A DNA stretch of 59,888 nt from a virus (lineage: Duplodnaviria > Caudoviricetes). How positions within the stretch are numbered: position 1 is the stretch's first letter; each line of letters begins with the position of its first letter. This document shows positions 3,067 to 59,429 of this stretch, piece after piece. The stretch lies in IMG/VR virus record IMGVR_UViG_3300032797_000052, positions 1 to 59,888 of that record, one strand, 5' to 3'. The translations under genes were made by a program, and so were the position numbers. The notes beneath the pieces are model-generated. The model did no database searches. It was not told the DNA's origin and was given only the letters and a program-made list of their open reading frames with translations.

Positions 3067-3184
3067 TCTTTCTCCTAGCACGTTTATTTATAATATCTCT
3101 AATAGTAAATACAGACTTACCAGATACTCTCATCCGATTTCTTTTCTTTTCTAATTTATTCTCACGCCGTTCCCATCTACTCAT
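3044..3184 (-). CDS. small highly basic protein (46 aa)
   Basis: Manual ORF MSRWERRENKLEKKRNRMRVSGK... with GAGGAG RBS. Confidence 0.5.
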   Translation of the reverse strand: MSRWERRENKLEKKRNRMRVSGKSVFTIRDIINKRARRKNARKSII

Positions 3185-3302
3185 TTATCTCCTCGTTGAA
3201 TATAAGAATATAAAAAGGACCAAAACAAATTCTTGTCCAATATTCGTGTTCACTTATGGACCATTTCCATCCTAACCATACTCCAAACAAAATTCTTCTC
3301 AT
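3177..3302 (-). CDS. small hypothetical protein (41 aa)
   Basis: Manual ORF MRRILFGVWLGWKWSISEHEYW..., overlaps the next start. Confidence 0.4.
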   Translation of the reverse strand: MRRILFGVWLGWKWSISEHEYWTRICFGPFYILIFNEEINE

Positions 3303-3395: not shown

Positions 3396-4274
3396 TTACT
3401 CTTCTGTTTCTGCTCCCTCAACACCCTCTATATCATCACCAAAGATTGCCTTCACTCTATCACTGACATCTGCTAACGAACCTTGTACTTCCTCAGCAAC
3501 TTCTGTTTCTGCCTCAGCCTTACGTTTCGCAAAGATGTCTGTAATAGATACTCCCTTGGTAACATCAATCATCTCATCTGCGGTTAATTGCATTCCTACA
3601 GATGATAGAACATATCTATCAAGGTTATTCTTCTCAATAATAGAAGTAACATCGTCATTGAATTGGGTCATAGGCATAGCCATAATAGTCATATCTTTTC
3701 CTGCTCCCTTGGTTGAAAGTTTAATATCAAAGGATGTTATTCCTCCTTTAACAACTTCGTTTCCAGTAGTAGGATCAATACTAAGATCAACAGTTTCACT
3801 ATGAATCATGGCTAATTGTTCAAACAATTCTCTACCACGTTCCAAAATTTTGATTGTATTAGATGGTTCAGGATCAATTCCCACTAGACATCTTTCACCA
3901 TCAGAAGTTGTAGTAGGGAATTTACCCTTAACTGCATAATACTCTTCTCCAGTTTCAGGGTCTTTAATGACTGGAGTTCTATCTAAAATATTTACCAAAT
4001 AGCGTCTGCTTCTATTGTAAAAACCTTTTGATTTCTTGTATGAATCTGGAAATTCTCTACGAAGCTCATCATTATGTAAACAGAGTGGACAAAGTTCTCC
4101 AATACATAACAGACTAGCATTAGCTTTTTGAATCCAGTGCTTTTCTACTGAATGAGCGGATTCATCTAGAATTCTAACTAAAACTGGACTACCTTCCTTG
4201 AAACGAAGATACTTTGGTCTAGTAAAATTAACATCTCCACTAGATTTATCTGGAAATTCTACAAATGGTTTCAT
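3396..4274 (-). CDS. single-stranded DNA-binding protein, T4 gp32-like
   Basis: VRIL...KHW...C...CPLC Zn site, acidic C-terminal tail, located next to RecA and DnaB. Confidence 0.75.
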   Translation of the reverse strand: MKPFVEFPDKSSGDVNFTRPKYLRFKEGSPVLVRILDESAHSVEKHWIQKANASLLCIGELCPLCLHNDELRREFPDSYKKSKGFYNRSRRYLVNILDRTPVIKDPETGEEYYAVKGKFPTTTSDGERCLVGIDPEPSNTIKILERGRELFEQLAMIHSETVDLSIDPTTGNEVVKGGITSFDIKLSTKGAGKDMTIMAMPMTQFNDDVTSIIEKNNLDRYVLSSVGMQLTADEMIDVTKGVSITDIFAKRKAEAETEVAEEVQGSLADVSDRVKAIFGDDIEGVEGAETEE

Positions 4275-11061: not shown

Positions 11062-11961
11062 ATGTTAAAGGATTTAGTTTTAGGCGCATCAGGGACAATA
11101 GGTAGATGGTTTATGGGAGATAATATTGTATCAGTAGATAAAGATATTCCAGAAAATCATATAGGTACTTATCTAATAACTGATCTCACTGATGAACATA
11201 AATTAATATCTATTTTTGAGAATCAATCTTATAATAAAGTTTTTCAATTTGCGGCTGATTCTGGAAAAATAGATTATCTTCTTTCCGCAGAACATTTTTA
11301 TGGCAATTCGACCCTTATTAATATCAATATACTAAAAGCACTCAAATGGGCCAAAAAAATCAATAAAGTTATTTGGCCTAGTTCTTTTTATAGATACGAT
11401 ATGTCTAGTCCATATGGATTAGAAAAAAAATATAATGAAGAATTATTTAAAAGAAATCTTTCTAAGGAAATAAAATTTATACTTCCTATTTTATGGCCTA
11501 CCTATGGACCATTATGTGATTTGACAATTAAAAATGAGAAAATAACAACTATGCTTTGTAGAAGAATTATAAAAGCCAATGATGGAGATATACTTGAATT
11601 AAAATTAAATCCACAGGAAGGTAGGTATTTTATCTATATTACGGATGCTATAAAAGCAATAAAATTAATGGCAGATTATGATGAGAATTTAATACTTGAT
11701 ATAGGAGGAGTTGAATTTATAACATTCGGAAATTTATTTAGAGAAATAGTAGAAATATCTAGAAAAGATATCTCAGTTTGTTATACCTCGAACATTGGTG
11801 AAAAAAGAATTACAAATAAATCTCCTGATCTAAAAACAACTTTATCAATTTTAGATTGGAATCCTGAGACATCTTTTCATAGGGGTATGGTAGCGACTTA
11901 TAGATTTATCGCAGAAACTTTGGAGGAATGGAATGCTTTATATAGAGCGGAACAATTGTAG
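11062..11961 (+). CDS. NAD-dependent epimerase/dehydratase (extended SDR)
   Basis: GASGTIG Rossmann motif, SS, YGLEK catalytic motif, YGP, LDWNP. Confidence 0.85.
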   Translation: MLKDLVLGASGTIGRWFMGDNIVSVDKDIPENHIGTYLITDLTDEHKLISIFENQSYNKVFQFAADSGKIDYLLSAEHFYGNSTLININILKALKWAKKINKVIWPSSFYRYDMSSPYGLEKKYNEELFKRNLSKEIKFILPILWPTYGPLCDLTIKNEKITTMLCRRIIKANDGDILELKLNPQEGRYFIYITDAIKAIKLMADYDENLILDIGGVEFITFGNLFREIVEISRKDISVCYTSNIGEKRITNKSPDLKTTLSILDWNPETSFHRGMVATYRFIAETLEEWNALYRAEQL

Positions 11962-13171
11962 AATTTCAGATTCAAAATTAGAAACAGTTTTAGATTTAGG
12001 TACAATTTATCCTTCTACCTTTGTTAAACCTGGAGAGGGATATGACTTTGAAAAAGTTCCACTTGAACTTTGTCGAGGAACGGAATCAAATCTTGTTCAG
12101 TTGAGACATACAGTTGATAGAGATTCACTTTATCGTCAATATTGGTATAAATCACAATTGAATAACACAATGGTTCACCATCTACAAGATATAGTAGATA
12201 ATATAACAGAAAGAATATCAATTCATCCTGGGGATGTTATTATTGATATTGGATGTAATGATGGTATAATGTTGTCAATGTTTCCAAAATATTGTTTTAA
12301 AATTGGAATTGATCCAGCTAATAATCTAAAAACCGTAGCATCTGGAAATTGTACTCTCTTTGTGAATGATTATTTTTCTAAAGAAGTTCTTCCACCAAAT
12401 CTACATGCTAAAATTATAACATCAATAGCCATGTTCTATGATCTTGATAATCCTAGAAAATTTATTGAGGATATTTTATCTGTAATGGATAGAGAGGGAA
12501 CATGGGTCATTCAAATGACCGATCTTTTTTGCATGTTAAGGGCTAATGCTTTTGATAATATTGTTCATGAGCATCTAGAATATTATTCTCTAGATGTTCT
12601 TATGAAACTATTATCAGAATATAATTTATTTATTTGGGATATTCAATATAATTTAGTAAATGGGGGAAGTGTCAGACTTTATATATCTCGCAGGGATTCC
12701 TCACATCGTCAATCAATAAATGTTCTAAGAGCATCATTTGTAGAGGATGAGTATTTAAGAGATGATCCATCACTAAAATTATTTAAAGATAGAATAGAAT
12801 CTATAAAATCAAAAGTCGTTAATTTTATCAGAAGAGAAAGAGATAGTTATAAATCAGTATATGGATTAGGAGCATCAACAAAAGGTAACACTCTACTTCA
12901 ATATTTTGGTCTTGACCATAATGATATCATTAAAATTGCTGAGATAAATCCTGATAAATATGGACTTGAAACCATAGGATCACGTATTCCAATAGTTCCA
13001 AATCTTTATGCCTTTGCTGAAAATCCTGATTATTTTCTAATTCTACCGTGGCATTTTGCACCTGATATTATTAGTAAATGCAAACTTTATATGAACAAAG
13101 GTATGAAATTTATTGTTCCTTGTCCAGAACCAATGATTATAGGGAGGTACGGATGCAAATTGATGGAGTAA
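11933..13171 (+). CDS. NDP-hexose C-methyltransferase
   Basis: DIGCNDG SAM motif, FDNIVHEHLEYYS, NGGSVR, YGLGASTKGNTLLQY, LILPWHF. Confidence 0.9.
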   Translation: MLYIERNNCRISDSKLETVLDLGTIYPSTFVKPGEGYDFEKVPLELCRGTESNLVQLRHTVDRDSLYRQYWYKSQLNNTMVHHLQDIVDNITERISIHPGDVIIDIGCNDGIMLSMFPKYCFKIGIDPANNLKTVASGNCTLFVNDYFSKEVLPPNLHAKIITSIAMFYDLDNPRKFIEDILSVMDREGTWVIQMTDLFCMLRANAFDNIVHEHLEYYSLDVLMKLLSEYNLFIWDIQYNLVNGGSVRLYISRRDSSHRQSINVLRASFVEDEYLRDDPSLKLFKDRIESIKSKVVNFIRRERDSYKSVYGLGASTKGNTLLQYFGLDHNDIIKIAEINPDKYGLETIGSRIPIVPNLYAFAENPDYFLILPWHFAPDIISKCKLYMNKGMKFIVPCPEPMIIGRYGCKLME

Positions 13172-13404
13172 ATTTAAAAAGTATTGGAACTTTAATTGAT
13201 GAGCTATCAATTATAAATATTAGAATTTGGATGATGATAGACATTATAATGGGAAAGGATACAAGAAATCATACACAAGAAGAAATTATTAATGTCGCTA
13301 AAGAAGTTCAGAAATTAAATGCAAAGAGAACTAAAATCATACGAGCAATAGATGAGCGATTAGGAGATAAAGATTCTACTCCAGCCGAGAAATTGTATGG
13401 CTAG
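13153..13404 (+). CDS. small helical protein (DUF4254/DUF6165-like)
   Basis: SIGTLIDELSIINIR...LNAKR...AID pattern typical of glycan loci. Confidence 0.55.
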   Translation: MQIDGVNLKSIGTLIDELSIINIRIWMMIDIIMGKDTRNHTQEEIINVAKEVQKLNAKRTKIIRAIDERLGDKDSTPAEKLYG

Positions 13405-14239
13405 TTATGGAGCAGTTATTATATCAAGAAATGATAATTATGGTGGAAATCTAGTAGAACGAGCTTCTTATTGTTTAAATTCATGTATTATTACTTTTGA
13501 TGAAATATTTTATATAGATTGGAACTCACCAGAGAAATGTCTTATAGAAGAAATAGAACCTAATCTATTAAAAACTGGAAAATTAAAATGGATACAAGTA
13601 ACACCAGAAGAACACAAACTTTTTACTAATAATGATGAAAGTGTACAAGTATGTTGCGAGGTTTTAGGAAGAAACATTGGAGTTCGTAGGCTTTCTACTG
13701 ATTTCATAGTCAGTACTAATATTGATGAAATATCTCCACCAAGACCACAACTTGAAACTCTCACATCTAAAACAACTTTTTATACAATCGCTAGACACGG
13801 TATTCAAGATATGAATATATTGCGTGGTGCTGGAAATTATCAGGAGATTGATAAAATAAGGGGAATTTTATTAGGAATGGGACTTCCTCAAGCATGGCCC
13901 GTAAAAATGTCATTGGAGGATGATTGGTCTTTAGTAGGATGGTGTGGAGATTTTCAGGTTGCTCATAGAAATGTCTGGTATAAGATTAGGGGATTTGAGG
14001 AGGTAATGTTAGGAAGAGGATTAGCAGATACATTTATTCAGAGAAAAGCAAAAGAGGAAGGATTTGAATTAAAACTTGTCTATGATGTACCTATATGGCA
14101 TATGGATCATGGGGCAGGTAGCGGTGGAATTGGGAGGAATAACAATCCTGAGACCTGGATTTATAAAGATTATAAAGGTACAACAAATTCTGAGGATTGG
14201 GGAAAACCAAATTATCCATTCGAGGTTCATACACTATGA
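13397..14239 (+). CDS. GT-A fold glycosyltransferase
   Basis: SRNDNYGG, RNIGVRR, STNID, GDFQ..HR..W..IRGFEE, WHMDH. Confidence 0.75.
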   Translation: MASYGAVIISRNDNYGGNLVERASYCLNSCIITFDEIFYIDWNSPEKCLIEEIEPNLLKTGKLKWIQVTPEEHKLFTNNDESVQVCCEVLGRNIGVRRLSTDFIVSTNIDEISPPRPQLETLTSKTTFYTIARHGIQDMNILRGAGNYQEIDKIRGILLGMGLPQAWPVKMSLEDDWSLVGWCGDFQVAHRNVWYKIRGFEEVMLGRGLADTFIQRKAKEEGFELKLVYDVPIWHMDHGAGSGGIGRNNNPETWIYKDYKGTTNSEDWGKPNYPFEVHTL

Positions 14240-15162
14240 ACAAATATATTGTAACTACAACAATACAACCTCCAACAGAAGCTACTTATAAATTCTCTGA
14301 AATGAAAGATTGGACTCTGATAATTGTTGGAGATATAAGAACTCCTCAAGAACAGTATAAATATGGTAACTGGATTTATTTATCTCCTGATTATCAGAAT
14401 CAACATTATCACAATGTAAGTGAGGCTATTGGTTGGAATTGTATTATGAGAAGAAATATAGGTTTTTTAGAAGCATATAAACTTGGAGCGGATATTGTTG
14501 CTAGCATAGATGATGATAATATTCCTTATGAAGATTGGGGAAAAGATTTAATAGTTGGAAAAGATATTGAGGTAGGACTTTATAATTGCGATGTTGGTAT
14601 TTTAGACCCAATGCAATTAACAAATCATCCTGAGTTATGGCATAGAGGTTATCCTATTGATAGACTTTATGAAAGAAAAAAAGTAAATTATCTTGAAAAA
14701 GTAATTAGGAAAGTTTTATTTCAAGTTAGTTTATGGAAAGGTGATCCAGATGTTGATGCTCTTTGTAGACTAATGTATAAACCTACAGATTTACAGTTAA
14801 CAGTTCGTGAGAAATTTTCATCTAATAATTTTATCCCATTTAACAGCCAGAATACATTTATTGACCGAAGTGCTTTATCTAGTTATATGGTTCTTCCATA
14901 TGTAGGTAGATCAGATGATATTTGGGGAGGATATATAGCTCAACATTTATTGAATACTCGCCCTGTATTTACTCATCCAACTGTTTATCAAAAAAGAAAT
15001 GACCAATCTATTTATAAAAATTTAGATGATGAGTTATTTGGTTATATGTGGACCAATAAATTTGTAGAAAATATAGAATATTTTGAGTATCGTCTTCCTA
15101 CAAAAACATTAAAAGCTTTTGATCTTTACAGGAAAGAATATGAAACCTTTAAAAATATTTAG
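14236..15162 (+). CDS. STELLO/DUF288-like (GT75-related) glycosyltransferase
   Basis: IVTTTI.PPT, IIVGD..TP, RRNIGFL.A...GA.I...DDDN, DPDVDA, FNSQNT, R.DDIW. Confidence 0.8.
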   Translation: MNKYIVTTTIQPPTEATYKFSEMKDWTLIIVGDIRTPQEQYKYGNWIYLSPDYQNQHYHNVSEAIGWNCIMRRNIGFLEAYKLGADIVASIDDDNIPYEDWGKDLIVGKDIEVGLYNCDVGILDPMQLTNHPELWHRGYPIDRLYERKKVNYLEKVIRKVLFQVSLWKGDPDVDALCRLMYKPTDLQLTVREKFSSNNFIPFNSQNTFIDRSALSSYMVLPYVGRSDDIWGGYIAQHLLNTRPVFTHPTVYQKRNDQSIYKNLDDELFGYMWTNKFVENIEYFEYRLPTKTLKAFDLYRKEYETFKNI

Positions 15163-15793
15163 AGATATAGATCGTCTTGTATATACTCAATTTATAGAAT
15201 ACTCATTTTGGATAGACACATTAAATTTTTTAAAAAAGAGAAATATAAGAACTATTGTAGATATAGGAGCATCATCTGGATTGTCTACTCTAATGTTTCT
15301 AGAACTGCCTGATTTAGAAAAGATATACTGTTTTGAACCAGACGAGATAAATTATGAAATGCTAATTGCGAATATGGAAGATTATAGAAATATAGTTGAA
15401 TTACATAATGTTGGAATATATTATGGAATAACAGAATCAAATGTAGTTGGAACAGGAGATAAAAGTCCTTTAGGATATATGGTAGAAGATGCTACCAAAG
15501 AACATAATTTTATATTTGGTACTATCAGATATGAAGGAAAAAAATTTAAACTGACAACATTAGAAAATATTATAAAAACTCCAGTAGATTTAATAAAAAT
15601 AGATGCTGAAGGTTCTGAATATAATATTATAGAAAATTCTAAGTTATTAAAAGAATCAAAAATTTTAATTATTAGTTTTCACAATCACCTAGAGAATTAT
15701 GTGAAAGATTTTATTTATAGAAATTTACCAAAATATGTACCAATAATAGTAGTAAGTTCTGGAGGGTACTCTGATGTTTTGTTGGAAAAATAA
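15140..15793 (+). CDS. FkbM-family methyltransferase
   Basis: VDIGASSG, FEP...NY..L..N, IKIDAEGSE. Confidence 0.85.
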   Translation: MKPLKIFRDIDRLVYTQFIEYSFWIDTLNFLKKRNIRTIVDIGASSGLSTLMFLELPDLEKIYCFEPDEINYEMLIANMEDYRNIVELHNVGIYYGITESNVVGTGDKSPLGYMVEDATKEHNFIFGTIRYEGKKFKLTTLENIIKTPVDLIKIDAEGSEYNIIENSKLLKESKILIISFHNHLENYVKDFIYRNLPKYVPIIVVSSGGYSDVLLEK

Positions 15794-17095
15794 ATGAAAA
15801 TATTATTTATAGAAAAGAAACTAAGAACTGATAAATTAGGAATCCTTTATCTTTCCAGTATACTAAAAATGGCTGGACATGATGTTAATCTCCTACAATT
15901 TGATGTTGATAATATTCTTCTAAGATTAAAAGAGGATAAGCCAGATTTTATAATGTACTCAGTAATGTCTAGTGAGTATGAATGGTTTTTAGAATACAAT
16001 AGATTCTTAAAACTCAATTTTGATTTTATATCCGTAATGGGAGGACCACATTTTACTTTCTTTCCAGAACAAGGACTAGAGGATACTTATGTAGATTTTG
16101 TGATTCAAGGACCAGGAGAAGATATTATTTTAGGCATTGTTGAGGGAGAGTTAAAAGATAAATTAGTTGTGGGACATCTTCCAGATATCAATAAATTACC
16201 TCATCCAGACCGTTCTATTCTTTATAAATATGACGAGTTTGGTAAAGCTCGAATGAAAAGATTTATAGCAGGAAGATATTGTTTATATAGTTGCAAATAT
16301 TGTTTCAATCATTTATTTAAAAAGATTTATCAAACAGAGAAGAATCTGTTCTTTCAAAGAGTATGTCCTGACAAAATGATTGAAGAGATTGGAGAAGTAA
16401 AACATCAATATGGCCTAGAATTAGTGTATTTCAATGATGATGATTTGGCAGCAAATAAGGAATGGTTAATTGAGTTTTGTGATAAATACAAAGAAAGAAT
16501 TGGTCTTGATTTCTGTGGTTCTATTCGAGCATCTAGTGTTGATTATAATATATTAAAAATAATGAGGAATGCTGGATGTACTTTTCTGAATATAGCTCTA
16601 GAATCAGCTAATCCTGAAACTCAGAAATTTCTTCGCAGAGGATTTATTACTAATGACCAAATCAAATCAGCCTGTGATATTTGTAAGGAACTTGGAATTA
16701 AAGTTAGATTACAAAATATGATAGGTTTACCAGTTGATAACCCTCTTGAGGATGCTTTACAAACTCTTAAGATGAATCGAGAGATAAATCCAACAGATTC
16801 CTGGGCTGCTATTTTTCAACCTTATCCTAAAACAGATTTATGGAAATACTGTATTGATAAAGGTTTAATACAACCAGATACTCAAGCTGGAACTTTTTAT
16901 GAACATACTGTGTTAAATATAAAAGATGCTGATAAAATAAATAATTTACATAAATGGTGGTTCTTTGCAGTAAAATATCAATGGCCTATAGAGTTAGTAA
17001 GAATATTACTAGATACTACTTTGACAAAAGAACAAGGAATGAAACTTCAAGAGTATAGATGGGATGTAGCTAAAAATTTACTTTATGGGATGTGA
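15794..17095 (+). CDS. cobalamin-binding radical SAM enzyme (class B)
   Basis: LGILYLSS..K.AGH and GGPH.T B12 domain; CLYSCKYC; FNDD; ALESA; MIGLP; FQPYPKT. Confidence 0.9.
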   Translation: MKILFIEKKLRTDKLGILYLSSILKMAGHDVNLLQFDVDNILLRLKEDKPDFIMYSVMSSEYEWFLEYNRFLKLNFDFISVMGGPHFTFFPEQGLEDTYVDFVIQGPGEDIILGIVEGELKDKLVVGHLPDINKLPHPDRSILYKYDEFGKARMKRFIAGRYCLYSCKYCFNHLFKKIYQTEKNLFFQRVCPDKMIEEIGEVKHQYGLELVYFNDDDLAANKEWLIEFCDKYKERIGLDFCGSIRASSVDYNILKIMRNAGCTFLNIALESANPETQKFLRRGFITNDQIKSACDICKELGIKVRLQNMIGLPVDNPLEDALQTLKMNREINPTDSWAAIFQPYPKTDLWKYCIDKGLIQPDTQAGTFYEHTVLNIKDADKINNLHKWWFFAVKYQWPIELVRILLDTTLTKEQGMKLQEYRWDVAKNLLYGM

Positions 17096-18069
17096 AAATG
17101 AATGCTTTAGTATGTGGGGCTGGTGGATTTATAGGAAATCATTTGGTTAATAAATTAAAGCAAGAAGATTTTTATGTTGTAGGAGCAGATTTAGTTTATC
17201 CTGCATATAATAAAACAAATGCTAATGAATATCATTTATGTGATTTACGAGAACCAGATTGGTGTGATACTTTATTTGATAATTATTATGATGAAATATA
17301 CCAATTAGCTGCCGATATGGGTGGAGCAGAATATATTTTTACTGGACTGCATGATGCAGATATCATACATAACTCTGCACTTATAAATTTAAATATAATT
17401 AAAAGATGCGTTGATAATAAAGTTGGAAAAATTTTCTTTTCATCCAGTGCTTGTGTATATAATCAATATAATCAAATGTTTCCTAACAATCCATTGTGTA
17501 GAGAAGATTCAGCCCTTCCAGCATTTCCAGATAGTGACTATGGTTGGGAGAAATTATTTAGCGAGATACTCTACTTAGCATATAATAGAAATTATAAAAT
17601 TCCAATAGCAATTGCTAGATTTCATAATATTTTTGGACCTTATGGGGCATGGAATAACGGTAAAGAGAAAGCCCCTGCTGCTATCTGTAGAAAAGTTGCA
17701 TATGCTAAAGCAAAAGAACTTGATTCGATAGATATTTTTGGATATGGAAAACAAACCAGAAGTTTTCTTTATATTGATGAATGTTTAATAGGAGTTAGAA
17801 AGCTAATGGATTCTAATTTTACTGGACCAGTAAATATAGGTTCAGATGAGATGGTTTCTATAGATACTTTGGCTAAAATGATTATGAAAATTGCAGGAAT
17901 TAATTTAAGAATAAATCATATTGTAGGACCTACCGGAGTAAGAGGAAGAACATCAGATAATACTTTAATTGAACAAGAATTAAACTGGAGACCAACAACA
18001 AAACTTTATGATGGTTTAGTTTTATTATATAAATGGATAGAGGAGAAGGTCAATGAAACTATTCAATAA
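17092..18069 (+). CDS. GDP-mannose 3,5-epimerase-like
   Basis: GAGGFIG, LAADMGG, SSACVY, YGWEK, RFHNIFGP, EKAPAA.CRK, QTRSF, GVRGR.SDN. Confidence 0.9.
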   Translation: MKMNALVCGAGGFIGNHLVNKLKQEDFYVVGADLVYPAYNKTNANEYHLCDLREPDWCDTLFDNYYDEIYQLAADMGGAEYIFTGLHDADIIHNSALINLNIIKRCVDNKVGKIFFSSSACVYNQYNQMFPNNPLCREDSALPAFPDSDYGWEKLFSEILYLAYNRNYKIPIAIARFHNIFGPYGAWNNGKEKAPAAICRKVAYAKAKELDSIDIFGYGKQTRSFLYIDECLIGVRKLMDSNFTGPVNIGSDEMVSIDTLAKMIMKIAGINLRINHIVGPTGVRGRTSDNTLIEQELNWRPTTKLYDGLVLLYKWIEEKVNETIQ

Positions 18070-18928
18070 TATTATATTTTATAATCATTACGGAGCGGGC
18101 GATTTATTAGAATCAAAAGAGTTTGTTAAGGCATATATAGAAAGATTACCTGCTGAAATTTATTCTTATGCTCATGGTAAAAATCCAAGAATGTTTGCTG
18201 ATATTCCAAATCTTCAAGCAATCAAAGTCGAAGATTGGATGCCAATGCGAACAGATACAGCGTATGTGAATGATAGAAATTTAATTATCAATACTTGGAT
18301 TGGAAGAGATTCTAAATATGTTCTTCCAGGGATAGGATGTACTATAGAGAAACTTTGTGAAATGCACAATGATATACTTTTTAAACTTAAAGTTTCTCCT
18401 TTGGAAAAATCAATAATTGATTATGCTCCACAAACCGACTGGAAATTTTTTAGAATTCAACCAGTTAAAAGTTGGTTGGAACAACATCCAGAAAGAAAAA
18501 TTCTAATCTCCAATGGTCCTGTTCAATCAAACCAAGCTGAAAATTTTGATATGACTTATGCTATAAAAATGTTAGCAGACCATTATAGACATATAACTTT
18601 TATAATTACACAACCTATAGATACGGATGCTGAAAATATTATTCTTTCTACAAATATAACAAATCCAAGTGACGGATTTGATTTGAACGAGATAGCATAT
18701 CTGAGTTTATCTTGTGATACCTTTATAGGACGAAATTCTGGACCTCATGTTTTTGCACAAAATTATTATAATTGGATAGACCCAAAAAAGGCAAGTTTAT
18801 CTTTTACTTATGAATCAATCGCATCACATAATTTCTATACTTCAGTTGTTCAAATGAAAAGATATTGGTGTAAAAAGACAGATACAAATAAAGTCTTTGA
18901 AGCATGTTGTAAGGTTATCGAGAGATAA
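18053..18928 (+). CDS. GT9-like glycosyltransferase
   Basis: G.GD near N-terminus; L.E...L...CD.FIG.NSGP. Confidence 0.6.
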   Translation: MKLFNNIIFYNHYGAGDLLESKEFVKAYIERLPAEIYSYAHGKNPRMFADIPNLQAIKVEDWMPMRTDTAYVNDRNLIINTWIGRDSKYVLPGIGCTIEKLCEMHNDILFKLKVSPLEKSIIDYAPQTDWKFFRIQPVKSWLEQHPERKILISNGPVQSNQAENFDMTYAIKMLADHYRHITFIITQPIDTDAENIILSTNITNPSDGFDLNEIAYLSLSCDTFIGRNSGPHVFAQNYYNWIDPKKASLSFTYESIASHNFYTSVVQMKRYWCKKTDTNKVFEACCKVIER

Positions 18929-18937
18929 GGAGATATA

Positions 18938-19840
18938 ATGAGTAAAACATTAATAGGTATGGTAACGTTTGGAAATTATCATTTTACAGAAATGACAATA
19001 AATTCAATTAAAAGAACTGCAAAAAATCCGGTTGATATATTAGTTATTGTCGGTAAACCATATGATGAACTTACTAAGTTACTTTGTGAAAGTAAGAATA
19101 TACATTATATATCACATGATCAAAATTATGGTTTTCCTTACTCTTGTAACGATATCTATGATTTTGCTTGGAAAGAACATGATTATGATAATTTAATTTT
19201 CATCGGAAATGATGTAGTTGTTTATCCTAATGCAATAGATATTTTAATAAAACAAGCAGAAACAACTGACTTTGAATGGATTGCAGGAGCACAATTTGAT
19301 TCTAGAAGTCTAATAAGAATGTATCCAGAAACAGAAACTTGGTTTCATGGAGATACTTTAAAATTTGATGCCTTTGATAAAAAACCTTGGGAGGCACACA
19401 AAGGATGGCCTAATAACCTGGATTTTGTACCTGATAGAATTCCTGATCTTCATAATTTCTGTCTACTCAAGAAATCAGTATTTGATAAGATAGGATATAA
19501 TGATGTGAGTTTTTATCCAGCATATTTTGAGGATAATGATTATGTGACAAGGGGTGTGAATGTAGGAGTTAATGCTTGTTATATGATTAATGCAGTTTTC
19601 TTTCATTTCTGGAGCAGAACAATCCATCAAGGAACTGGTGGTTCTGATCCTCATTTCTTTGAAAACAATAGACAATACTTTATTAGAAAATGGGGCGCAA
19701 CTCCTCCAACTACTCCATATAAAATTCCATTTAACGGAATTCCCTATAATTTAACAGAAGATATTATATTACCAGCAACTTTAAAAATAGATACAAGAGA
19801 AAATGAGAAAAAAATTATTGCTTATTGGAGAATGAAATAG
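18938..19840 (+). CDS. GT2 glycosyltransferase
   Basis: NYGFPYSCN, GNDV, FDKIGYND..FYPAYFEDNDY. Confidence 0.85.
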   Translation: MSKTLIGMVTFGNYHFTEMTINSIKRTAKNPVDILVIVGKPYDELTKLLCESKNIHYISHDQNYGFPYSCNDIYDFAWKEHDYDNLIFIGNDVVVYPNAIDILIKQAETTDFEWIAGAQFDSRSLIRMYPETETWFHGDTLKFDAFDKKPWEAHKGWPNNLDFVPDRIPDLHNFCLLKKSVFDKIGYNDVSFYPAYFEDNDYVTRGVNVGVNACYMINAVFFHFWSRTIHQGTGGSDPHFFENNRQYFIRKWGATPPTTPYKIPFNGIPYNLTEDIILPATLKIDTRENEKKIIAYWRMK

Positions 19841-32350: not shown

Positions 32351-33634
32351 ATGGTAAAATCAAAAGGAAAGGATAAAACAATTTTAGTTATTGGAGATGC
32401 TGTAACTCCAACAGGATTTGCAAGGGTACTTCATAGTTTATTTGTACCTTTATCAAAGAAATATAATATTCATCAGATTGGAGTAAACTATGCTGGCGAT
32501 CCACATAGTTTTCCTTACTCTATTTATCCAGCAATGCTTAGATATGATATCTATGGAGTAAATAGAATTGCGGAATTGGTTGATAGACTAAAGCCAGATT
32601 TAATTTTTATTCTTAATGATTTATGGATACATGCCGAGTATATGAAAGTCTTGAAGGACTATCTTAATAAAATAAAGATAGTCATGTACTCCCCGATAGA
32701 CGCAGGACCGATAGATTATAGATGGTTAAAAGAAATAAAAGATATTAATAGATTTATAGTATATACAGATTTTGCAAAAGATGTAATAGAAGATAGTTTA
32801 AGAACTTGGATTAAAAAAGAAGGGATTGATAAAGTTAGATTTCCTCCAATAAATATTCTACCTCATGGAATTGACACTAAGACTTTCTATCCATTTCCAG
32901 ATATAGAGGGAGTTAGCGGGAAGATTATAGCTAAGAAAGAATTACTTCCAAACAGGTCTGATTTCTTGGATTCATTTATTGTTTTGAATGCTAATAGAAA
33001 TCAACCAAGAAAAAGATTAGATACCACAATTAAGGGTTTTAAACTTTTTGCAGATAATAAACCAATAAATGTAAAACTTTATATGCATACTGGCATAGAG
33101 GATATGGGTTGGAATATTGTTAATTTATGTAATAGATATGATATAGATGATAGACTAATTGTATCAAGTATAAATCCTGGTGTTCAAACTGTTCCAGATA
33201 ATAGATTAAATCTTATTTATAATGCCTGTGATATAGGAATAAATACATCTGTTGGGGAGGGTTGGGGATTGTGCAATTGGGAACATGCAGCTACTAAAGC
33301 AGCACAAATTGTTCCTAATCACTCATCAAATACAGAATTATGGAGTAACAAAAGAGGAATATTAATGGAACCCTCTTTTAGTTTGACAAATGAAAGAGTT
33401 TTAACAGAAGGAAGATTTGTTACTCCAGAAACAGTAGCAGAATCTCTAGAATTACTTTATCAAGATAAGCAACTTAGAGATAAATTAGCTAATAATGCAT
33501 ATAAATATATTACTAAACCAAAATTTAATTGGAAAAATATATCTAAACTTTTAGATGATATATTAATAGAAGTTCTAGAAGAAGAGTTGCCAAAAGTCGA
33601 GGAACAAACAGATGGTAATATCGTGGCCCTCTAA
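32351..33634 (+). CDS. GT4 glycosyltransferase
   Basis: TGFARV, PHGID...FYP, NRNQPRKR, YNACD.GINTS.GEGWGL. Confidence 0.9.
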   Translation: MVKSKGKDKTILVIGDAVTPTGFARVLHSLFVPLSKKYNIHQIGVNYAGDPHSFPYSIYPAMLRYDIYGVNRIAELVDRLKPDLIFILNDLWIHAEYMKVLKDYLNKIKIVMYSPIDAGPIDYRWLKEIKDINRFIVYTDFAKDVIEDSLRTWIKKEGIDKVRFPPINILPHGIDTKTFYPFPDIEGVSGKIIAKKELLPNRSDFLDSFIVLNANRNQPRKRLDTTIKGFKLFADNKPINVKLYMHTGIEDMGWNIVNLCNRYDIDDRLIVSSINPGVQTVPDNRLNLIYNACDIGINTSVGEGWGLCNWEHAATKAAQIVPNHSSNTELWSNKRGILMEPSFSLTNERVLTEGRFVTPETVAESLELLYQDKQLRDKLANNAYKYITKPKFNWKNISKLLDDILIEVLEEELPKVEEQTDGNIVAL

Positions 33635-49238: not shown

Positions 49239-50342
49239 ATGAGGTTTCATTTATTAGGACTTGCACATACTAAAACAAATAAAGATTTTATTTTGTGTGC
49301 ATATACTCAAAAAGTATATAAATTGGCAAGGATGCTCACAAAGTTAGGACATGAAGTTATTCATTATGGAGCAGACGGAAGTGATGTACCATGCGAGCAT
49401 GTGACTGTAATAACTGATGATGTCTGGAAACAATGTTATGGGGATTATGACTGGAGAAAAGAATTCTTTAAACATGATCCAAATGATTCAGCATATACTA
49501 CTTTTAATACAAATGCTATCAGAGAAATAAATACTAGGAAAAGAGATAAAGATTTTTTACTCGTTTCCTTTGGAAATTATCAAAAATCTATAGTAGATGC
49601 AGTAAATATTCCCCTCACAGTTGAAATGGGAATTGGGTATTCTGGAGTATTTTGTAAATATAAGATTTTTGAAAGTTATGCTTGGATGCATTATATTTAT
49701 GGACTTATAAAGCAAGATGATGGAATTTGGTATGATGCTGTAATTCCTAATTATTTTGATCCACATGATTTTATTTTCAAAGACAAAAAAGAGGATTATT
49801 TTGCCTATCTTGGAAGAATAATCTCAAGAAAAGGAATACAAGTAGCTGTGGATACAACAAAAGTTATAGGTGCAGAACTAAGAGTTGCTGGACAAGGTTC
49901 TTTGAAAGATTTAGGAATAACAGATAATCATGTAAATCATATCGGTTCTGTAAATACAGAAGAAAGAAAAGAATTTTTAAGTAACGCAAAAGCATTATTT
50001 GTTCCAACATATTACCTAGAACCTTTTGGTGGAGTTGCTGTAGAAGCAATGTTAAGTGGAACTCCTGTTATAACAACTGATTGGGGAGTATTTAGTGATA
50101 TAATAGATCATGGAGTGAATGGTTTTAGATGTAGAACTCTAGATGATTTTGTATTTGCTGCTAGACATATTGATGATTTAGATAAAAAATTGATTAGAAG
50201 ATGCGCTAAAAAGAATTATTCTATGAAACGAGTTTCAAAAATGTATGAGGAATACTTCACAAAATTGAGTGATTTATATAAAAAAGGGTGGTATGAAATT
50301 CATGATGATAGGCAAAATCTTGATTGGTTGAGGAAATACTAA
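49239..50342 (+). CDS. GT4 glycosyltransferase
   Basis: [33 protein letters not shown]. Confidence 0.9.
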
Positions 50343-57197: not shown

Positions 57198-57233
57198 AAA
57201 AAAATTAGGAGAGGAGGATTATCCTCCTCTCCT
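57198..57233 (-). terminator. rho-independent terminator
   Basis: AGGAGAGGAGGA/TCCTCCTCTCCT plus T7 on minus. Confidence 0.8.
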
Positions 57234-57262
57234 CTTGCCGTGACTAAATACAACGGCAAGTA

Positions 57263-57868
57263 TTACAATGCAACACTGACTTCTGCCTCAGTAATTTTAC
57301 TATTGCGAGCCTTGGGTTCATTTGCTTGTCGAGGATAACGCTTGAATGATTCTCTAGCAGCATTTGTCTTAATGCCACACATTGTAATCAAATCCTTAAC
57401 ATTGAATATCATCATGCCACCGCGTGCAGCATAATTAACTATTACATTATAATCAGCAGGTTCTTTACTAAATCCTAATTGTTTGAATTTTGACGCAACT
57501 TCATTCACCCAAGCAGCAAATCCTAATTGTCTAGCACCACGCGCTGTACCACTACCACCGACAATTGCATTGAAAAGGAATTCTGCTTGATTAGGATTTA
57601 ATCCATTAATGAACTGAGATTCAGCATAGATTAAAAGTGGATTACCCTTACCGGCCACTTCTACTGAAATCTCATTAATCTGACCTTTTTCAACACTTGT
57701 GGCAATAGGTAATGTACTGCCAAAAGCTTTTAGACTAGGAAGAGTCAGTAAAGTAACTTTCTTTGTATTAGAAGTAGGCTTACTAATAGGTTTCTGAGGA
57801 ACTTTACTATTAGCTATTCTATTGTGCAGTTCCTTTTTACCAGTCACTTTATTTTCCTCGTTACTCAC
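57263..57868 (-). CDS. hypothetical basic protein
   Basis: 201 aa, isolated transcription unit with terminator. Confidence 0.7.
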   Translation of the reverse strand: MSNEENKVTGKKELHNRIANSKVPQKPISKPTSNTKKVTLLTLPSLKAFGSTLPIATSVEKGQINEISVEVAGKGNPLLIYAESQFINGLNPNQAEFLFNAIVGGSGTARGARQLGFAAWVNEVASKFKQLGFSKEPADYNVIVNYAARGGMMIFNVKDLITMCGIKTNAARESFKRYPRQANEPKARNSKITEAEVSVAL

Positions 57869-58025
57869 ATACTTGCTTTAAGACTTTAACAGGAATTCTA
57901 ATCTTATCCGGGTTTCTAATAATTCTATCTTTACGCTTAGTTATCACTTTAACAGATTCATTACTAATATGGAACCTAATTCTTATATCATATGTTCGCA
58001 TTGTAGGCTCCTTGACTATGCTATT

Positions 58026-58157
58026 AAAATGAAAAATGCTACTCAGATAAGAGTAGTAGAGGGTTTAAGAGGTAACGGCGAGACCTCTCATATTATAATG
58101 GCCGTTTCGATAATGATAAAAGTCTCTACTACTCATATCCGAGTAGCATTTCATTTA
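58026..58157 (-). ncRNA. three-way-junction RNA with complementary loops
   Basis: 26-bp basal stem, two apical hairpins, loops AACGGC/GCCGTT. Confidence 0.6.
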
Positions 58158-58163
58158 TTTTAG

Positions 58164-58235
58164 TACGCCTACGAGGAATTGAACCTCGATCAATAGATTA
58201 AAAGTCTACTGCACTATCCTTTGTGCTATAGGCGC
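58164..58235 (-). tRNA. tRNA-Lys(UUU)
   Basis: GCGCCTA/TAGGCGT, GTAGA-CTTTTAA-TCTAT, CGAGG-TTCAATT-CCTCG. Confidence 0.9.
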
Positions 58236-58246
58236 ATGATTCTGAG

Positions 58247-58319
58247 TGGACTAGGGTAGACTCGAACTACCAGCCGACCGCTTATAAGACGGTTGCACGT
58301 ACCATCGTGCTGCTAGTCC
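58247..58319 (-). tRNA. tRNA-Ile(UAU)
   Basis: GGACTAG/CTAGTCC, ACCGT-CTTATAA-GCGGT, GGTAG-TTCGAGT-CTACC. Confidence 0.88.
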
Positions 58320-58324
58320 AAAGA

Positions 58325-58440
58325 TGCTGTAGTTTATTGGCTTTTATCCTACAGCGTATCCTGCCTGTAACTACTAACAGGTTGTCTTTTGGTGCCCACC
58401 TATTAGGTGCTCACCGCAGAGTAGTTTTAAGCCACAGGAT
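58325..58440 (-). ncRNA. double-pseudoknot RNA candidate between tRNAs
   Basis: Four stems plus two loop-strand complementarities (7 and 6 bp). Confidence 0.6.
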
Positions 58441-58442
58441 AG

Positions 58443-58526
58443 TCCCACCACCGAGATTTGCACTCGGACGCCATTACTGGCTGTGGATTTTAAGTCCACT
58501 ATGTCTGCTAGTTTCATCATGGTGGG
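58443..58526 (-). tRNA. tRNA-Leu(UAA)
   Basis: CCCACCA/TGGTGGG, GTGGA-CTTAAAA-TCCAC, long variable arm, CCGAG-TGCAAAT-CTCGG. Confidence 0.9.
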
Positions 58527-58617
58527 AGTAGTGGATTATACTGTATAGATGCGAATACTCAGGCGGATACTCACTGGCGAGTACTCCGAACCACTTTACA
58601 TCGTACTCTCAGTATAA

Positions 58618-58682
58618 CCCACTGTTCTGAGTATAAATGGAAGTTTCTCTTACTTCAGTACATTTATACTCAGAACAGTGGG
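58618..58682. repeat. perfect 22-bp inverted repeat
   Basis: CCCACTGTTCTGAGTATAAATG (58618-39) / CATTTATACTCAGAACAGTGGG (58661-82). Confidence 0.8.
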
Positions 58683-58713
58683 GGAGAGGGCGAACCCGAT
58701 AGACTAGACTAGT

Positions 58714-59097
58714 CTAGGATACTGTGGGAACGGGTAGAAGAATACTGATCTGTTTAACGGATTCAACATCCGTTATAACAGGCAATTCTACCACGTTCTC
58801 CACTATCTTTTCGGGCTGCATCAAAAGGGCGAGAGCCATTTGCCTCAGATCACCCTGATGCTGGTATCCGCGTAGATTTGTCTTTACTGGTACTATATTC
58901 CCATCATACGGGAGGAGGATAATCCAACGATCATCCTCAGTACCCTTCTCCCATCCAGTATTCAAGAACATGAGGGGAATATGGCGAAGTCCCTTACACA
59001 TCGCCCGAATTTCTGTACCAGATTTTCCGTATCTACTCGGACGTTGAGGCTCACCGGCTGAACCAGATGTATCAGGCTTCCCTGTTTTAGGGGTCAT
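58714..59097 (-). CDS. hypothetical protein (GC-rich)
   Basis: AAGGAG RBS; own promoter at 59163-59199. Confidence 0.65.
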   Translation of the reverse strand: MTPKTGKPDTSGSAGEPQRPSRYGKSGTEIRAMCKGLRHIPLMFLNTGWEKGTEDDRWIILLPYDGNIVPVKTNLRGYQHQGDLRQMALALLMQPEKIVENVVELPVITDVESVKQISILLPVPTVS

Positions 59098-59429
59098 GGA
59101 GTATTACTCCTTTTTGGGTACTATGTACCAGCCTGCCCATCAGGCGCGCCCTCTCCAGCCTTATTGTCCCACAGATTCCGAAAACGCACCTTAAAGATTC
59201 CGAATGAAAATAATTTTATTATTTGATGGAATTTAGGTACTCAAGTGTTGAGTAAGCGGAGAGTAAAAGAGAAATCTTGAGTAGACAAAGAGTAAAATTG
59301 AAGAATTTAGTAGTTAAAACTTTTGAGTACTCAGTAAAAAGTAAAGGAATTTGGAGTAAAAAAAATTATATTTAGTCCTAATATTCTATTATATATATTT
59401 ATTCTACCATAATTTGTTACTTTAAACAG

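What the first reader, a model, noticed from the sequence alone, without database searches (positions are those of the whole stretch)
58325..58440. Compact ~116-nt RNA with two potential pseudoknots filling the Leu-Ile spacer
Seen (minus): ATCCTG/CAGGAT encloses GGTG-CACCT/AGGTG-CACC and CCTGT-TAGTAGTT-ACAGG, followed by GCTGTAG/CTACAGC. The 5' single strand holds TGGCTT, complementary to AAGCCA in the last loop, and AACTACT, complementary to AGTAGTT in the inner loop. It starts 2 nt after the tRNA-Leu discriminator. The topology does not fit HDV/theta ribozymes as I read it. Inference: a new ribozyme or ligand/protein-binding RNA.
Basis: partly seen in the sequence, partly recalled or inferred. 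Interest (0 to 1): 0.7.

Follow-up and report, generated by a model that had tools for sequence, protein, structure and literature searches.

The report
Pseudoknotted RNA inside phage tRNA arrays
A compact, knotted RNA of about 115 bases sits directly behind a transfer-RNA gene in two related environmental phages and matches no described RNA family, so it may be a new RNA-processing element, though its function is untested.

Summary

It is more than chance. I found a homolog in a related IMG/VR phage (terminase 58% identical), also filling a tRNA-to-tRNA spacer (Trp to Gln). It shares a 19-nt core and the same architecture. Compensatory changes occur in the closing helix P1, in the TGGCTT/AAGCCA pseudoknot and in the 3' hairpin.

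The second pseudoknot (AACTACT/AGTAGTT) is absent from the homolog, so it is lineage-specific at best.

No Rfam family matches, even at E<=10. The helix order resembles HDV/theta ribozymes. However, P1.1 cannot form in the homolog, the would-be catalytic C is a U in the window copy, and an extra conserved hairpin encloses the P2-like strand. I do not file it as HDV-like.

The element begins at the same short U-rich linker that separates neighbouring tRNAs in these arrays.

Best reading (0.42): a new structured RNA module excised like a tRNA, with RNase P cutting at a stacked P1-P3 mimic, which also sets the upstream tRNA's 3' trailer. Main rival (0.22): a new self-cleaving ribozyme.

Only two members are known, and there is no RNA data.

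The parts
58443..58526 (-). tRNA-Leu(UAA), upstream neighbour; discriminator A at 58443
   Evidence: ARAGORN; Rfam tRNA 46.1 bits
58441..58442 (-). linker C-U between the discriminator and P1, with U at -1 of P1. It is the same kind of C(C)-U-rich linker found between neighbouring tRNAs of these arrays.
58434..58440 (-). P1 5' strand AUCCUGU (i3-9). The inner CCUGU is identical in the homolog.
   Evidence: a metagenome relative loses similarity exactly at 58441/58442
58429..58434 (-). pseudoknot PK-A 5' strand (U)GGCUU (i9-14)
   Evidence: pairs with i100-105; covaries with ACCCCUU/AAGGGGU in L083
58420..58426 (-). AACUACU (i17-23), complement of the P3 loop (PK-B); seen only in this lineage
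   Evidence: no counterpart in L083
58391..58415 (-). variable hairpin hpV (i28-52)
   Evidence: The homolog has a hairpin of different sequence. Indels at 58406, 58411 and 58418, and a divergence point at 58419, occur in metagenome relatives.
58384..58389 (-). conserved single-stranded AAAGAC (i54-59)
   Evidence: identical in L083:777-782
58364..58381 (-). P3 hairpin (C)CUGU-UAGUAGUU-ACAG(G), i62-79, abutting the P1 3' strand
   Evidence: the CUGU/ACAG stem is identical in L083
58358..58364 (-). P1 3' strand GCAGGAU (i79-85)
   Evidence: pair table; the two outer pairs change compensatorily in L083
58326..58355 (-). 3' hairpin hp4 (i88-117). Its 16-nt loop carries the PK-A 3' strand AAGCCA at 58338-58343.
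   Evidence: In L083 the stem has a different sequence but still pairs (8 bp), and the loop shares AAAAG.
58320..58325 (-). linker AUCUUU to tRNA-Ile
58247..58319 (-). tRNA-Ile(UAU), downstream neighbour; tRNA-Lys(UUU) follows at 58164-58235

Best explanation
The spacer encodes a member of a new family of autonomously folding, pseudoknotted RNAs (called F1 here, about 100-116 nt). These RNAs are embedded as modules in the tRNA arrays of a clade of uncultured freshwater-sediment siphophages.

Shown by the calls:
- A 7-bp closing helix P1 begins 2-5 nt after the upstream tRNA's discriminator.
- P1's 5' strand runs straight into a 5-7-nt strand that pairs with the loop of a 3' hairpin (pseudoknot PK-A).
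- P1 encloses a variable hairpin, a conserved AAAGAC linker, and a short hairpin P3 that abuts P1's 3' strand.

Inferred, not shown:
- F1 sits where a tRNA would sit and behind the same C(C)-U-rich linker. I therefore propose it is cut out of the polycistronic transcript like a tRNA.
- RNase P (host or phage) would read the contiguous P1+P3 stack (11-12 bp) as an acceptor/T-arm mimic and cut at its 5' edge.
- That cut would leave the upstream tRNA with a 2-5-nt trailer for trimming and CCA completion.
- The cut at the next tRNA's 5' end would release F1 as a compact RNA.
- Whether the released RNA has a function of its own is open.
For: Fold and position:
- Searches show the fold and its place between tRNA-Leu and tRNA-Ile.

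Homolog:
- It lies at L083:738-834 in record G014, between tRNA-Trp and tRNA-Gln.
- Its unconstrained MFE fold gives P1, hpV, P3 and hp4 directly.
- Five blocks are identical: CCUGU, AAAGAC, CUGU, ACAGGCAGG and AAAAG.

Compensatory changes:
- 2 of 7 pairs in P1.
- 3 of 6 aligned pairs in PK-A.
- 5 of 7 aligned pairs in hp4 change on both sides and a sixth becomes a U-G wobble. The register of that stem alignment is my choice.
- The PK-A complement recurs in 0.7% (window copy) and 1.3% (homolog) of loop shuffles.

Specificity of the core pattern:
- Across IMG/VR it hit 6 loci, and only the G014 one lies beside tRNAs.
- In 596 Gb of prokaryote contigs it hit 55 loci, and 0 of 55 lie beside a tRNA.

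Strain variants in sediment metagenomes:
- One contig carries the element behind a different tRNA, with similarity ending exactly at 58441.
- Indels fall only in the 5' linker and hpV.

Junction rule:
- Most of the 96 array tRNAs listed are followed by C or CC and then a U-rich 2-4 nt, by my reading of the listing.
- U is at -1 of 68 of the 96 tRNAs.
- F1 starts after C-U in the window and after CC-UAU in G014. CC-UAU is the same string seen at several tRNA-to-tRNA junctions.
- The RNase P RNA-like gene of G014 and three copies of a second spacer family start at the same offset.
- G014 carries an RNase P RNA-like gene inside the array.
Against: - There is no RNA data and no cleavage data of any kind.
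- A shape mimic for RNase P does not explain why the inner P1, P3 and AAAGAC are sequence-identical while all other parts diverged. It also does not explain why a pseudoknot and an extra hairpin are kept.
- The P3 loop (8 nt here, 4 nt in G014) is not a T-loop.
- No RCCA follows P1.
- The Rfam tRNA model and ARAGORN do not see a tRNA. Only ARAGORN's permissive mitochondrial mode makes a weak call, and on a different helix.
- Only two family members were found. F1 is absent from 10 of the 11 related records whose tRNA arrays I examined.
- No RNase P RNA-like gene was found in the window. The record is estimated 61% complete.
Confidence: 0.42

Rival explanations
1. F1 is a new class of self-cleaving ribozyme. 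It cuts at its own 5' edge, between U(-1) and the first P1 nucleotide. This would release the upstream tRNA as theta ribozymes do, but with a different active site.
For: - The position matches that of tRNA-associated theta ribozymes, whose cleavage site lies within +/-5 nt of a tRNA 3' end (PMC10879173, section 7 read).
- P1 sits at the 5' edge, as needed for scarless 3' processing.
- The pseudoknotted multi-helix fold has a short list of invariant nucleotides (CCUGU, AAAGAC, CUGU/ACAG, AAAAG). That is the pattern expected of a catalytic core, and mere shape mimicry does not explain it.
- U is at -1 in the three contexts seen.
Against: - There is no biochemical evidence.
- No known ribozyme model matches.
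- Neither a CCA-adding enzyme (PF01743) nor an RNA ligase (PF09414) was found in 0 of 5 tRNA-rich records of the clade, all of them incomplete. Such genes are enriched in theta-carrying phages.
- With only two sequences, 'invariant' is weak.
- Ten conserved candidate motifs tested by others did not cleave (PMC10085705, section 17 read). The prior for any one motif is therefore low.
Confidence: 0.22
2. F1 is a divergent HDV-like (theta-type) ribozyme. In this reading P1 = i3-9/79-85, P2 = PK-A and P3 = CUG/CAG, with a large insertion between P2 and P3.
For: - The helix order P1, P2 5', P3, P1', P2 3' is the HDV order.
- P1 is 7 bp.
- P3 abuts P1'.
- In G014 a C followed by AA lies directly before the P2-like 3' strand.
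- G is at +1 in G014.
Against: - The C in G014 (L083:812) aligns with U (i97) in the window copy. C-to-U inactivates HDV-like ribozymes (PMC10879173, sections 7 and 8 read).
- With a 3-bp P3, the L3 of G014 is UUUGAA, which holds no C. No G-C P1.1 of the canonical kind (a kind I recall rather than tested) can form with the G-rich junction after P1.
- The strand that would be J4/2 is base-paired in hp4, a helix kept in both copies with different sequence.
- The Rfam HDV models give nothing at E<=10.
- The length is twice that of theta ribozymes (56 nt).
Confidence: 0.04
3. F1 is a decayed tRNA gene or a spacer without function, and its complementarities are chance or leftovers.
For: - The distance from the start to the end of the closing helix (85 nt) is that of a class II tRNA.
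- ARAGORN's mitochondrial mode calls a 60-nt D-loop 'mtRNA-Ile(aat)' inside it.
- Phage tRNA arrays turn over quickly. L002 has another sequence upstream of the same tRNA-Ile.
Against: - Two phages with 58% identical terminases keep the architecture while the sequences of hpV, hp4, PK-A and the outer part of P1 differ, with pairing preserved.
- The D-stem-position strand has its partner only in the 3' hairpin loop in both copies.
- The descriptor background is 19 hits per 1.59 Mb, yet both elements start within 5 nt of a tRNA end.
Confidence: 0.1
4. F1 is a trans-acting small RNA, for example a decoy or binding partner for a tRNA-directed host or phage protein. The tRNA array would serve only as its expression and processing platform.
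For: - Sequence-invariant patches lie in an otherwise freely varying scaffold.
- Other non-tRNA RNAs are housed in the same arrays: an RNase P RNA-like gene and a second family with 7 covarying pairs.
- From recall, not from any call: phage T4 also keeps two stable RNAs of unknown role in its tRNA cluster.
Against: - No partner is known.
- No candidate protein was found next to it.
- This reading overlaps with the best explanation and does not exclude it.
Confidence: 0.15

Closest known systems
Theta ribozymes (minimal HDV-like ribozymes next to phage tRNAs; PMC10879173, sections 4, 6-8, 10 and 13 read)
   Same: It lies directly 3' of a phage tRNA that lacks an encoded CCA. P1 is at the very 5' edge. 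The P1 and P2-type strands are nested, with P3 abutting P1's 3' strand.
   Different: - It is about twice as long.
- A 32-47-nt insertion (a hairpin plus AAAGAC) lies between the P2-like strand and P3.
- P1.1 is not possible in the homolog.
- The would-be catalytic C is not conserved.
- A conserved extra hairpin encloses the P2-like 3' strand.
- It comes from freshwater-sediment phages, not gut phages.
- The theta descriptor is in a supplement I could not see.
Hatchet ribozyme (PMC6561176, passages read)
   Same: [quoted passage not shown] That is the property a tRNA 3'-processing ribozyme needs.
   Different: - Hatchet's P1 is a local hairpin followed by a P2-P3-P4 rod with internal loops.
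- F1's P1 closes a three-way junction, and a pseudoknot reaches a 3' hairpin.
- The Rfam hatchet model gives no match.
tRNA-like RNase P substrates such as mascRNA/MEN-beta (Rfam RF01684; the biology is recalled)
   Same: A stacked acceptor-like and T-like helix lies right after another RNA, so that one RNase P cut makes the upstream 3' end.
   Different: - F1 has no cloverleaf.
- The D-stem position is filled by a pseudoknot with a downstream hairpin loop.
- There is no T-loop motif.
- No Rfam match falls in the element.
Stable RNAs 'species 1 and 2' of the phage T4 tRNA cluster (recalled; no call)
   Same: They are non-tRNA RNAs housed in a phage tRNA cluster and matured with the tRNAs, with function unknown.
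   Different: blastn against 50,697 phage records found nothing for either copy.

Membership tests
HDV-like / theta ribozyme | 7-bp P1 at the 5' edge, P2 strand after it, P3 abutting P1' (nested pseudoknot) | tested here: met
   pair table
HDV-like / theta ribozyme | P1.1 between L3 and the junction after P1' | tested here: not met
   The L3 of the homolog is 4 nt (6 nt if P3 is taken as 3 bp) and holds no C, so no G-C P1.1 of the kind I recall as canonical can form. The feature itself is recalled.
HDV-like / theta ribozyme | catalytic C at the first position of J4/2 | tested here: not met
   C at L083:812 aligns with U at i97 (58346) in the window. That strand is paired in hp4 in both copies. 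The role of the C is taken from PMC10879173.
HDV-like / theta ribozyme | match to the Rfam HDV-type covariance models | tested here: not met
   no hit at E<=10 in 57900-58900 or at E<=5 in L083
HDV-like / theta ribozyme | Mg2+-dependent self-scission | not testable with these tools
   bench assay needed
Hatchet ribozyme | P1 hairpin, then a P2-P3-P4 rod with 13 conserved nucleotides | tested here: not met
   The topology differs (PMC6561176 passages), and there is no Rfam hit.
Hammerhead, twister, twister-sister, pistol, glmS | family covariance model | tested here: not met
   No hit at E<=10. By eye I also saw no CUGANGA hammerhead core in either copy, judged against a motif I recall.
tRNA | cloverleaf recognised by ARAGORN or Rfam RF00005 | tested here: not met
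   Only the mitochondrial mode gives a weak 60-nt call with mismatched stems.
tRNA-like RNase P substrate | contiguous acceptor-like (7 bp) plus T-like (4-5 bp) stack with the cut site at its 5' base | tested here: met
   P1 and P3 share a continuous 3' strand in both copies
tRNA-like RNase P substrate | cleavage by RNase P | not testable with these tools
   bench assay needed

The most novel reading that the evidence does not exclude
F1 is a third class of self-cleaving ribozyme that cuts at its own 5' edge, after the HDV family and hatchet. Environmental phages would use it to mature tRNA 3' ends. Together with the other structured spacers and the reduced RNase P RNA-like gene in the same arrays, it would form a largely RNA-based tRNA-processing kit carried by the phage.
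Probability: 0.2. Interest if true: 0.9.

Novelty: new variant of a known kind. Interest (0 to 1): 0.6.

Why it matters
Phage tRNA arrays are usually annotated as tRNAs separated by junk. Here the junk holds at least one, and probably several, conserved structured RNAs that start exactly where a tRNA would start. One array also holds a reduced RNase P RNA-like gene.

If F1 is a processing handle, phages build punctuation marks out of tRNA mimics. If it self-cleaves, it is a new ribozyme class and a second, independent solution to the problem that theta ribozymes solve.

Either way it gives a small, testable RNA of about 115 nt, with a covariation-supported pseudoknot, for structural and biochemical work.

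Tried and rejected
Exact-word scans:
- IMG/VR scans with three stretches of the window (25, 23 and 22 nt) gave 0 hits each.
- The one metagenome scan, with the tRNA-Ile 5' half, gave 1 contig (L002). It has the same Ile-Lys pair but another sequence in the 65 nt held upstream.

Searches by similarity:
- The two flanking ORFs have no relatives in IMG/VR and no PHROG family.
- blastn of both copies against 50,697 phage records found only tRNA-Lys for the window and nothing for the homolog.
- tblastn of the terminase against the same records found nothing.
- The antisense ORF 58307-58531 has no protein relatives.

Covariance model:
- A single-sequence model (R1) found nothing in 50 related records.
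- In 45 kb of arrays it gave only E>=0.9 noise.
- It scores the true homolog at only 6.6 bits, so these blanks mean little.
- MAFFT misaligned the two copies, and the model-based alignment carried antisense junk rows. I therefore made the pair table by script, not with the count of structure pairs.

Pattern and array searches:
- The core pattern on 50 records also hit G041, which has no tRNAs. I did not follow it up.
- A genome-contig scan gave 55 chance hits.
- Two further arrays (G042, G038) were read by eye only. I saw no F1 there.

Sequencing runs:
- No RNA holder was listed. Six DNA runs hold at most 0.26 of the sampled words.
- Read laying cut 36 variant rows from its table, so the base changes inside the element in relatives could not be read.

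Other points:
- A terminator-like match on the plus strand at 58363-58382 is the antisense of P3 plus AAAGAC. I rejected it as the explanation because the stems are 4-5 bp and no plus-strand gene ends there.
- The search of earlier findings was not open.
- I could not see the supplements of the theta paper (the descriptor and the sequence lists). I cannot exclude that a relative of F1 is listed there, though its size and the U at the catalytic position make that unlikely.

Full report
WHAT IS THERE

The window is an IMG/VR virus record of 59,888 bp, estimated 61% complete. It is a siphovirus-like phage with a terminase, a portal and a tape-measure protein.

On the minus strand lies a small tRNA unit:
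- tRNA-Leu(UAA) at 58526-58443
- a 123-nt spacer at 58442-58320
- tRNA-Ile(UAU) at 58319-58247
- 11 nt of spacer
- tRNA-Lys(UUU) at 58235-58164

I number the spacer i = 58443 - position.
- P1: AUCCUG(U), i3-9, pairs with (G)CAGGAU, i79-85.
- hpV: a variable hairpin at i28-52.
- P3: a hairpin at i62-79 that abuts the P1 3' strand.
- hp4: a 3' hairpin at i88-117.
- UGGCUU (i9-14) is complementary to AAGCCA in the hp4 loop. I call this PK-A.
- AACUACU (i17-23) is complementary to AGUAGUU in the P3 loop. I call this PK-B.

IS IT MORE THAN CHANCE?

Evidence from the window alone:
- The spacer folds better than all but 1 of 200 shuffles (z = -3.1).
- Each loop complement recurs in 0.7% of loop shuffles.

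The stronger evidence is comparative. The terminase has hundreds of relatives in environmental data. Of these, 293 are in IMG/VR and the best 80 were kept. Of the 80 records, 11 held tRNA matches (9 of 26 and 2 of 54).

I read their inter-tRNA spacers. In record G014 (terminase 58% identical), the 104-nt spacer between tRNA-Trp and tRNA-Gln (L083:735-838) has the same build:
- P1 is GCCCUGU/GCAGGGC.
- It is followed at once by ACCCCUU, which pairs with AAGGGGU in the loop of a 3' hairpin.
- A hairpin of unrelated sequence stands in the hpV position.
- The linker AAAGAC is present.
- P3 is CUGU-UUGA-ACAG and abuts P1'.

Its unconstrained MFE fold gives exactly these helices.

Five blocks are identical in the two copies: CCUGU, AAAGAC, CUGU, ACAGGCAGG and AAAAG in the hp4 loop. 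Everything else differs, yet pairing is kept:
- 2 of 7 P1 pairs changed on both sides.
- 3 of 6 aligned PK-A pairs changed on both sides.
- 5 of 7 aligned hp4 pairs changed on both sides, and a sixth became a U-G wobble. The register of that stem alignment is my choice.

Controls:
- The 19-nt core pattern matches 6 loci in all of IMG/VR. Only the G014 one lies beside tRNAs.
- In 596 Gb of prokaryote contigs it matches 55 loci. None lies beside a tRNA.
- A structure-only descriptor hits 21 places in 1.59 Mb counting both strands, and two of them are these elements.

Results against the family being widespread:
- Only these two members were found.
- My single-sequence covariance model found nothing in 50 related records or in 45 kb of arrays. 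It scores the true homolog at only 6.6 bits, so it was too weak to judge absence.
- The other arrays I read hold other spacers, not F1.

STRAIN VARIANTS

Contigs from four freshwater-sediment metagenome runs were laid on 57200-59200. They show relatives that differ from the window at about 6-9% of the covered positions:
- One contig (X2, record 10) covers 58196-58441 with 22 differences. It then continues into the 3' end of a different tRNA, so the element is a module whose 5' border is P1.
- Two contigs (X3, X4) match tRNA-Leu and i1-24 without a single difference and then diverge at 58419.
- The indels listed between 58320 and 58442 are at 58406, 58411 and 58418, in the 5' linker and hpV.

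The table of base changes was cut (36 rows were not shown), so I could not read covariation from these contigs.

THE TWO PSEUDOKNOTS

PK-A is supported by its position directly after P1, its partner in the hp4 loop, and compensatory change.

PK-B is not conserved. In G014 the P3 loop is 4 nt, the 5' linker is 5 nt, and the two are not complementary. In the window both partner segments are longer, which would fit a lineage-specific extra contact. But the same 7 bp also forms a nested helix that competes with P3 in the MFE fold. I rate PK-B as unproven.

WHAT IT IS NOT

Rfam 15:
- It gives no match in the element at E<=10.
- It gives no match in the homolog at E<=5.

HDV-like or theta:
- The order of P1, the P2-like strand, P3 and P1' is that of HDV-like ribozymes. 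P1 is 7 bp at the 5' edge next to a tRNA, as in theta ribozymes (PMC10879173, sections read).
- Three features fail. P1.1 cannot form in G014. The C that would be catalytic in G014 (L083:812) is U in the window copy, and C-to-U inactivates these ribozymes. That strand is also paired in hp4, a helix both copies keep.
- I therefore do not file it as HDV-like.

Hatchet: it has another topology.

tRNA: ARAGORN and the tRNA model see no tRNA. The mitochondrial mode gives one weak call on the PK-B helix.

CONTEXT THAT BEARS ON MECHANISM

In the arrays of this clade, most of the 96 tRNAs listed are followed by C or CC and then 2-4 U-rich nt, by my reading of the listing. U stands at -1 of 68 of the 96 tRNAs.

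- F1 begins behind the same linker: A-C-U|AUCCUGU in the window and G-CC-UAU|GCCCUGU in G014. CC-UAU is the very string found at several tRNA-to-tRNA junctions.
- A second spacer family has three copies in G014, with 7 of 16 predicted pairs compensatory. It starts at the same offset.
- So does an RNase P RNA-like gene (L083:1712-2008). It scores 47.3 bits, below Rfam's cut-off of 100, but GAGGAAA, AGCAA and AACAGAA..GGUUAC are aligned with the model's conserved blocks, and the middle of the model is largely deleted.

F1 thus occupies a tRNA slot.

Its P1 and P3 share one continuous 3' strand of 11-12 bp, like an acceptor stem stacked on a T stem. PK-A lies where a D stem would lie, hpV where the anticodon arm would lie, and AAAGAC where the variable region would lie.

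MOST LIKELY MECHANISM

Inferred, confidence 0.42. The unit is transcribed as one precursor. A TATAAT lies at 58540-58535. A terminator-like hairpin lies at 58056-58039.

- RNase P cuts at the 5' base of P1 as it does at a tRNA.
- That cut gives the upstream tRNA a 2-5-nt trailer ending in 3'-OH, for trimming and CCA completion.
- The cut at the next tRNA's 5' end frees F1 as a compact RNA.

What this leaves unexplained is the sequence identity of the core.

That gap keeps two rivals alive: a new self-cleaving ribozyme (0.22) and a trans-acting RNA that binds some partner (0.15). A decayed tRNA or chance (0.10) is disfavoured by the compensatory changes.

Gene content gives no support for the ribozyme reading. 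Neither a CCA-adding enzyme nor an RNA ligase was found in 5 incomplete records. Twenty window ORFs scanned against Pfam gave replication and sugar-modification genes only.

NOVELTY AND VERDICT

The kind, a cis element at phage tRNA 3' ends, is known from theta ribozymes. The fold is new.

My literature searches for a description turned up only the theta papers and general ribozyme work. None describes this motif, as far as listings and the sections I read show.

Interest is 0.6. It would be high if the element is catalytic, and solid but modest if it is a processing handle. Confidence is limited by n = 2 and the lack of any RNA data.

Noticed in passing
L083:1712-2008 (= G014:C1:57211-57507): An RNase P RNA-like gene lies inside a phage tRNA array, right after tRNA-Cys. 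It matches Rfam RF00010 at 47.3 bits (cut-off 100), E about 1e-13. GAGGAAA, AGCAA and AACAGAA..GGUUAC blocks are aligned, and the middle of the model is mostly deleted. It was found in 1 of the 5 tRNA-rich records searched, and not in the window.
   Followed up: partly
L083:2956-3041, 3116-3193, 3693-3784: A second family of structured spacers has three copies in one array, after tRNA-Leu(tag), tRNA-Phe and tRNA-Leu(taa). The copies share GGGGCUGGAU, GAUUACAUAGC and AGCUUUUGCC. RNAalifold predicts 16 pairs, 7 with compensatory changes. There is no Rfam match.
   Followed up: partly
L084:8605-8794 (-) and L085:810-990 (-): Two spacers of about 180-190 nt, in two other related phages, are closed by long helices. 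They share a block GCGU(C/U)ACUAAGACGU. This is possibly a third spacer RNA family.
   Followed up: partly
L159:209-304 (-) and L158:1993-2080 (+): Two more helix-closed spacers were seen. One is a 96-nt RNA closed by a 12-bp helix in the MFE fold, whose strands begin ACAGGUGGU and end ACCACCUGU. The other is an 88-nt four-arm cloverleaf with anticodon-loop-like CUGUAAA, which looks like a tRNA-Tyr(GUA) that ARAGORN and Rfam missed.
   Followed up: no
arrays in L001, L002, L083-L092: There is a junction rule in these arrays: discriminator, then C or CC, then 2-4 U-rich nt, then the next RNA. U is at -1 of 68 of 96 tRNAs. A full CCA is rarely encoded.
   Followed up: partly
window 58601-58693 and 58024-58153: Two long inverted repeats flank the three-tRNA unit. 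The upstream one shows clustered substitutions and small insertions in metagenome relatives (58637-58662). The downstream one is replaced in some relatives, with similarity lost at 58161.
   Followed up: no
window 11062-19840: A block of sugar-modifying genes sits just upstream of the terminase. It holds two NAD-dependent epimerase/dehydratases, a C-methyltransferase, an FkbM methyltransferase, a B12-binding radical SAM enzyme and a family 2 glycosyltransferase. Further glycosyltransferases lie at 32351-33634 and 49239-50342.
   Followed up: no
terminase relatives P0014, P0022, P0025, P0098, P0107: Some terminase homologs are 860-916 aa long and carry domain families PF14528, PF14890 or PF03161, which the 526-aa form lacks. 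From recall, PF14528 and PF03161 are LAGLIDADG homing-endonuclease families and PF14890 is an intein splicing domain.
   Followed up: no
window 58363-58382 (+): A terminator-like match on the plus strand is the antisense of P3 followed by the antisense of AAAGAC. I judged it incidental.
   Followed up: partly
L091:2733-2806 (-): ARAGORN calls a tRNA with anticodon AUA, labelled Tyr, in record G023.
   Followed up: no
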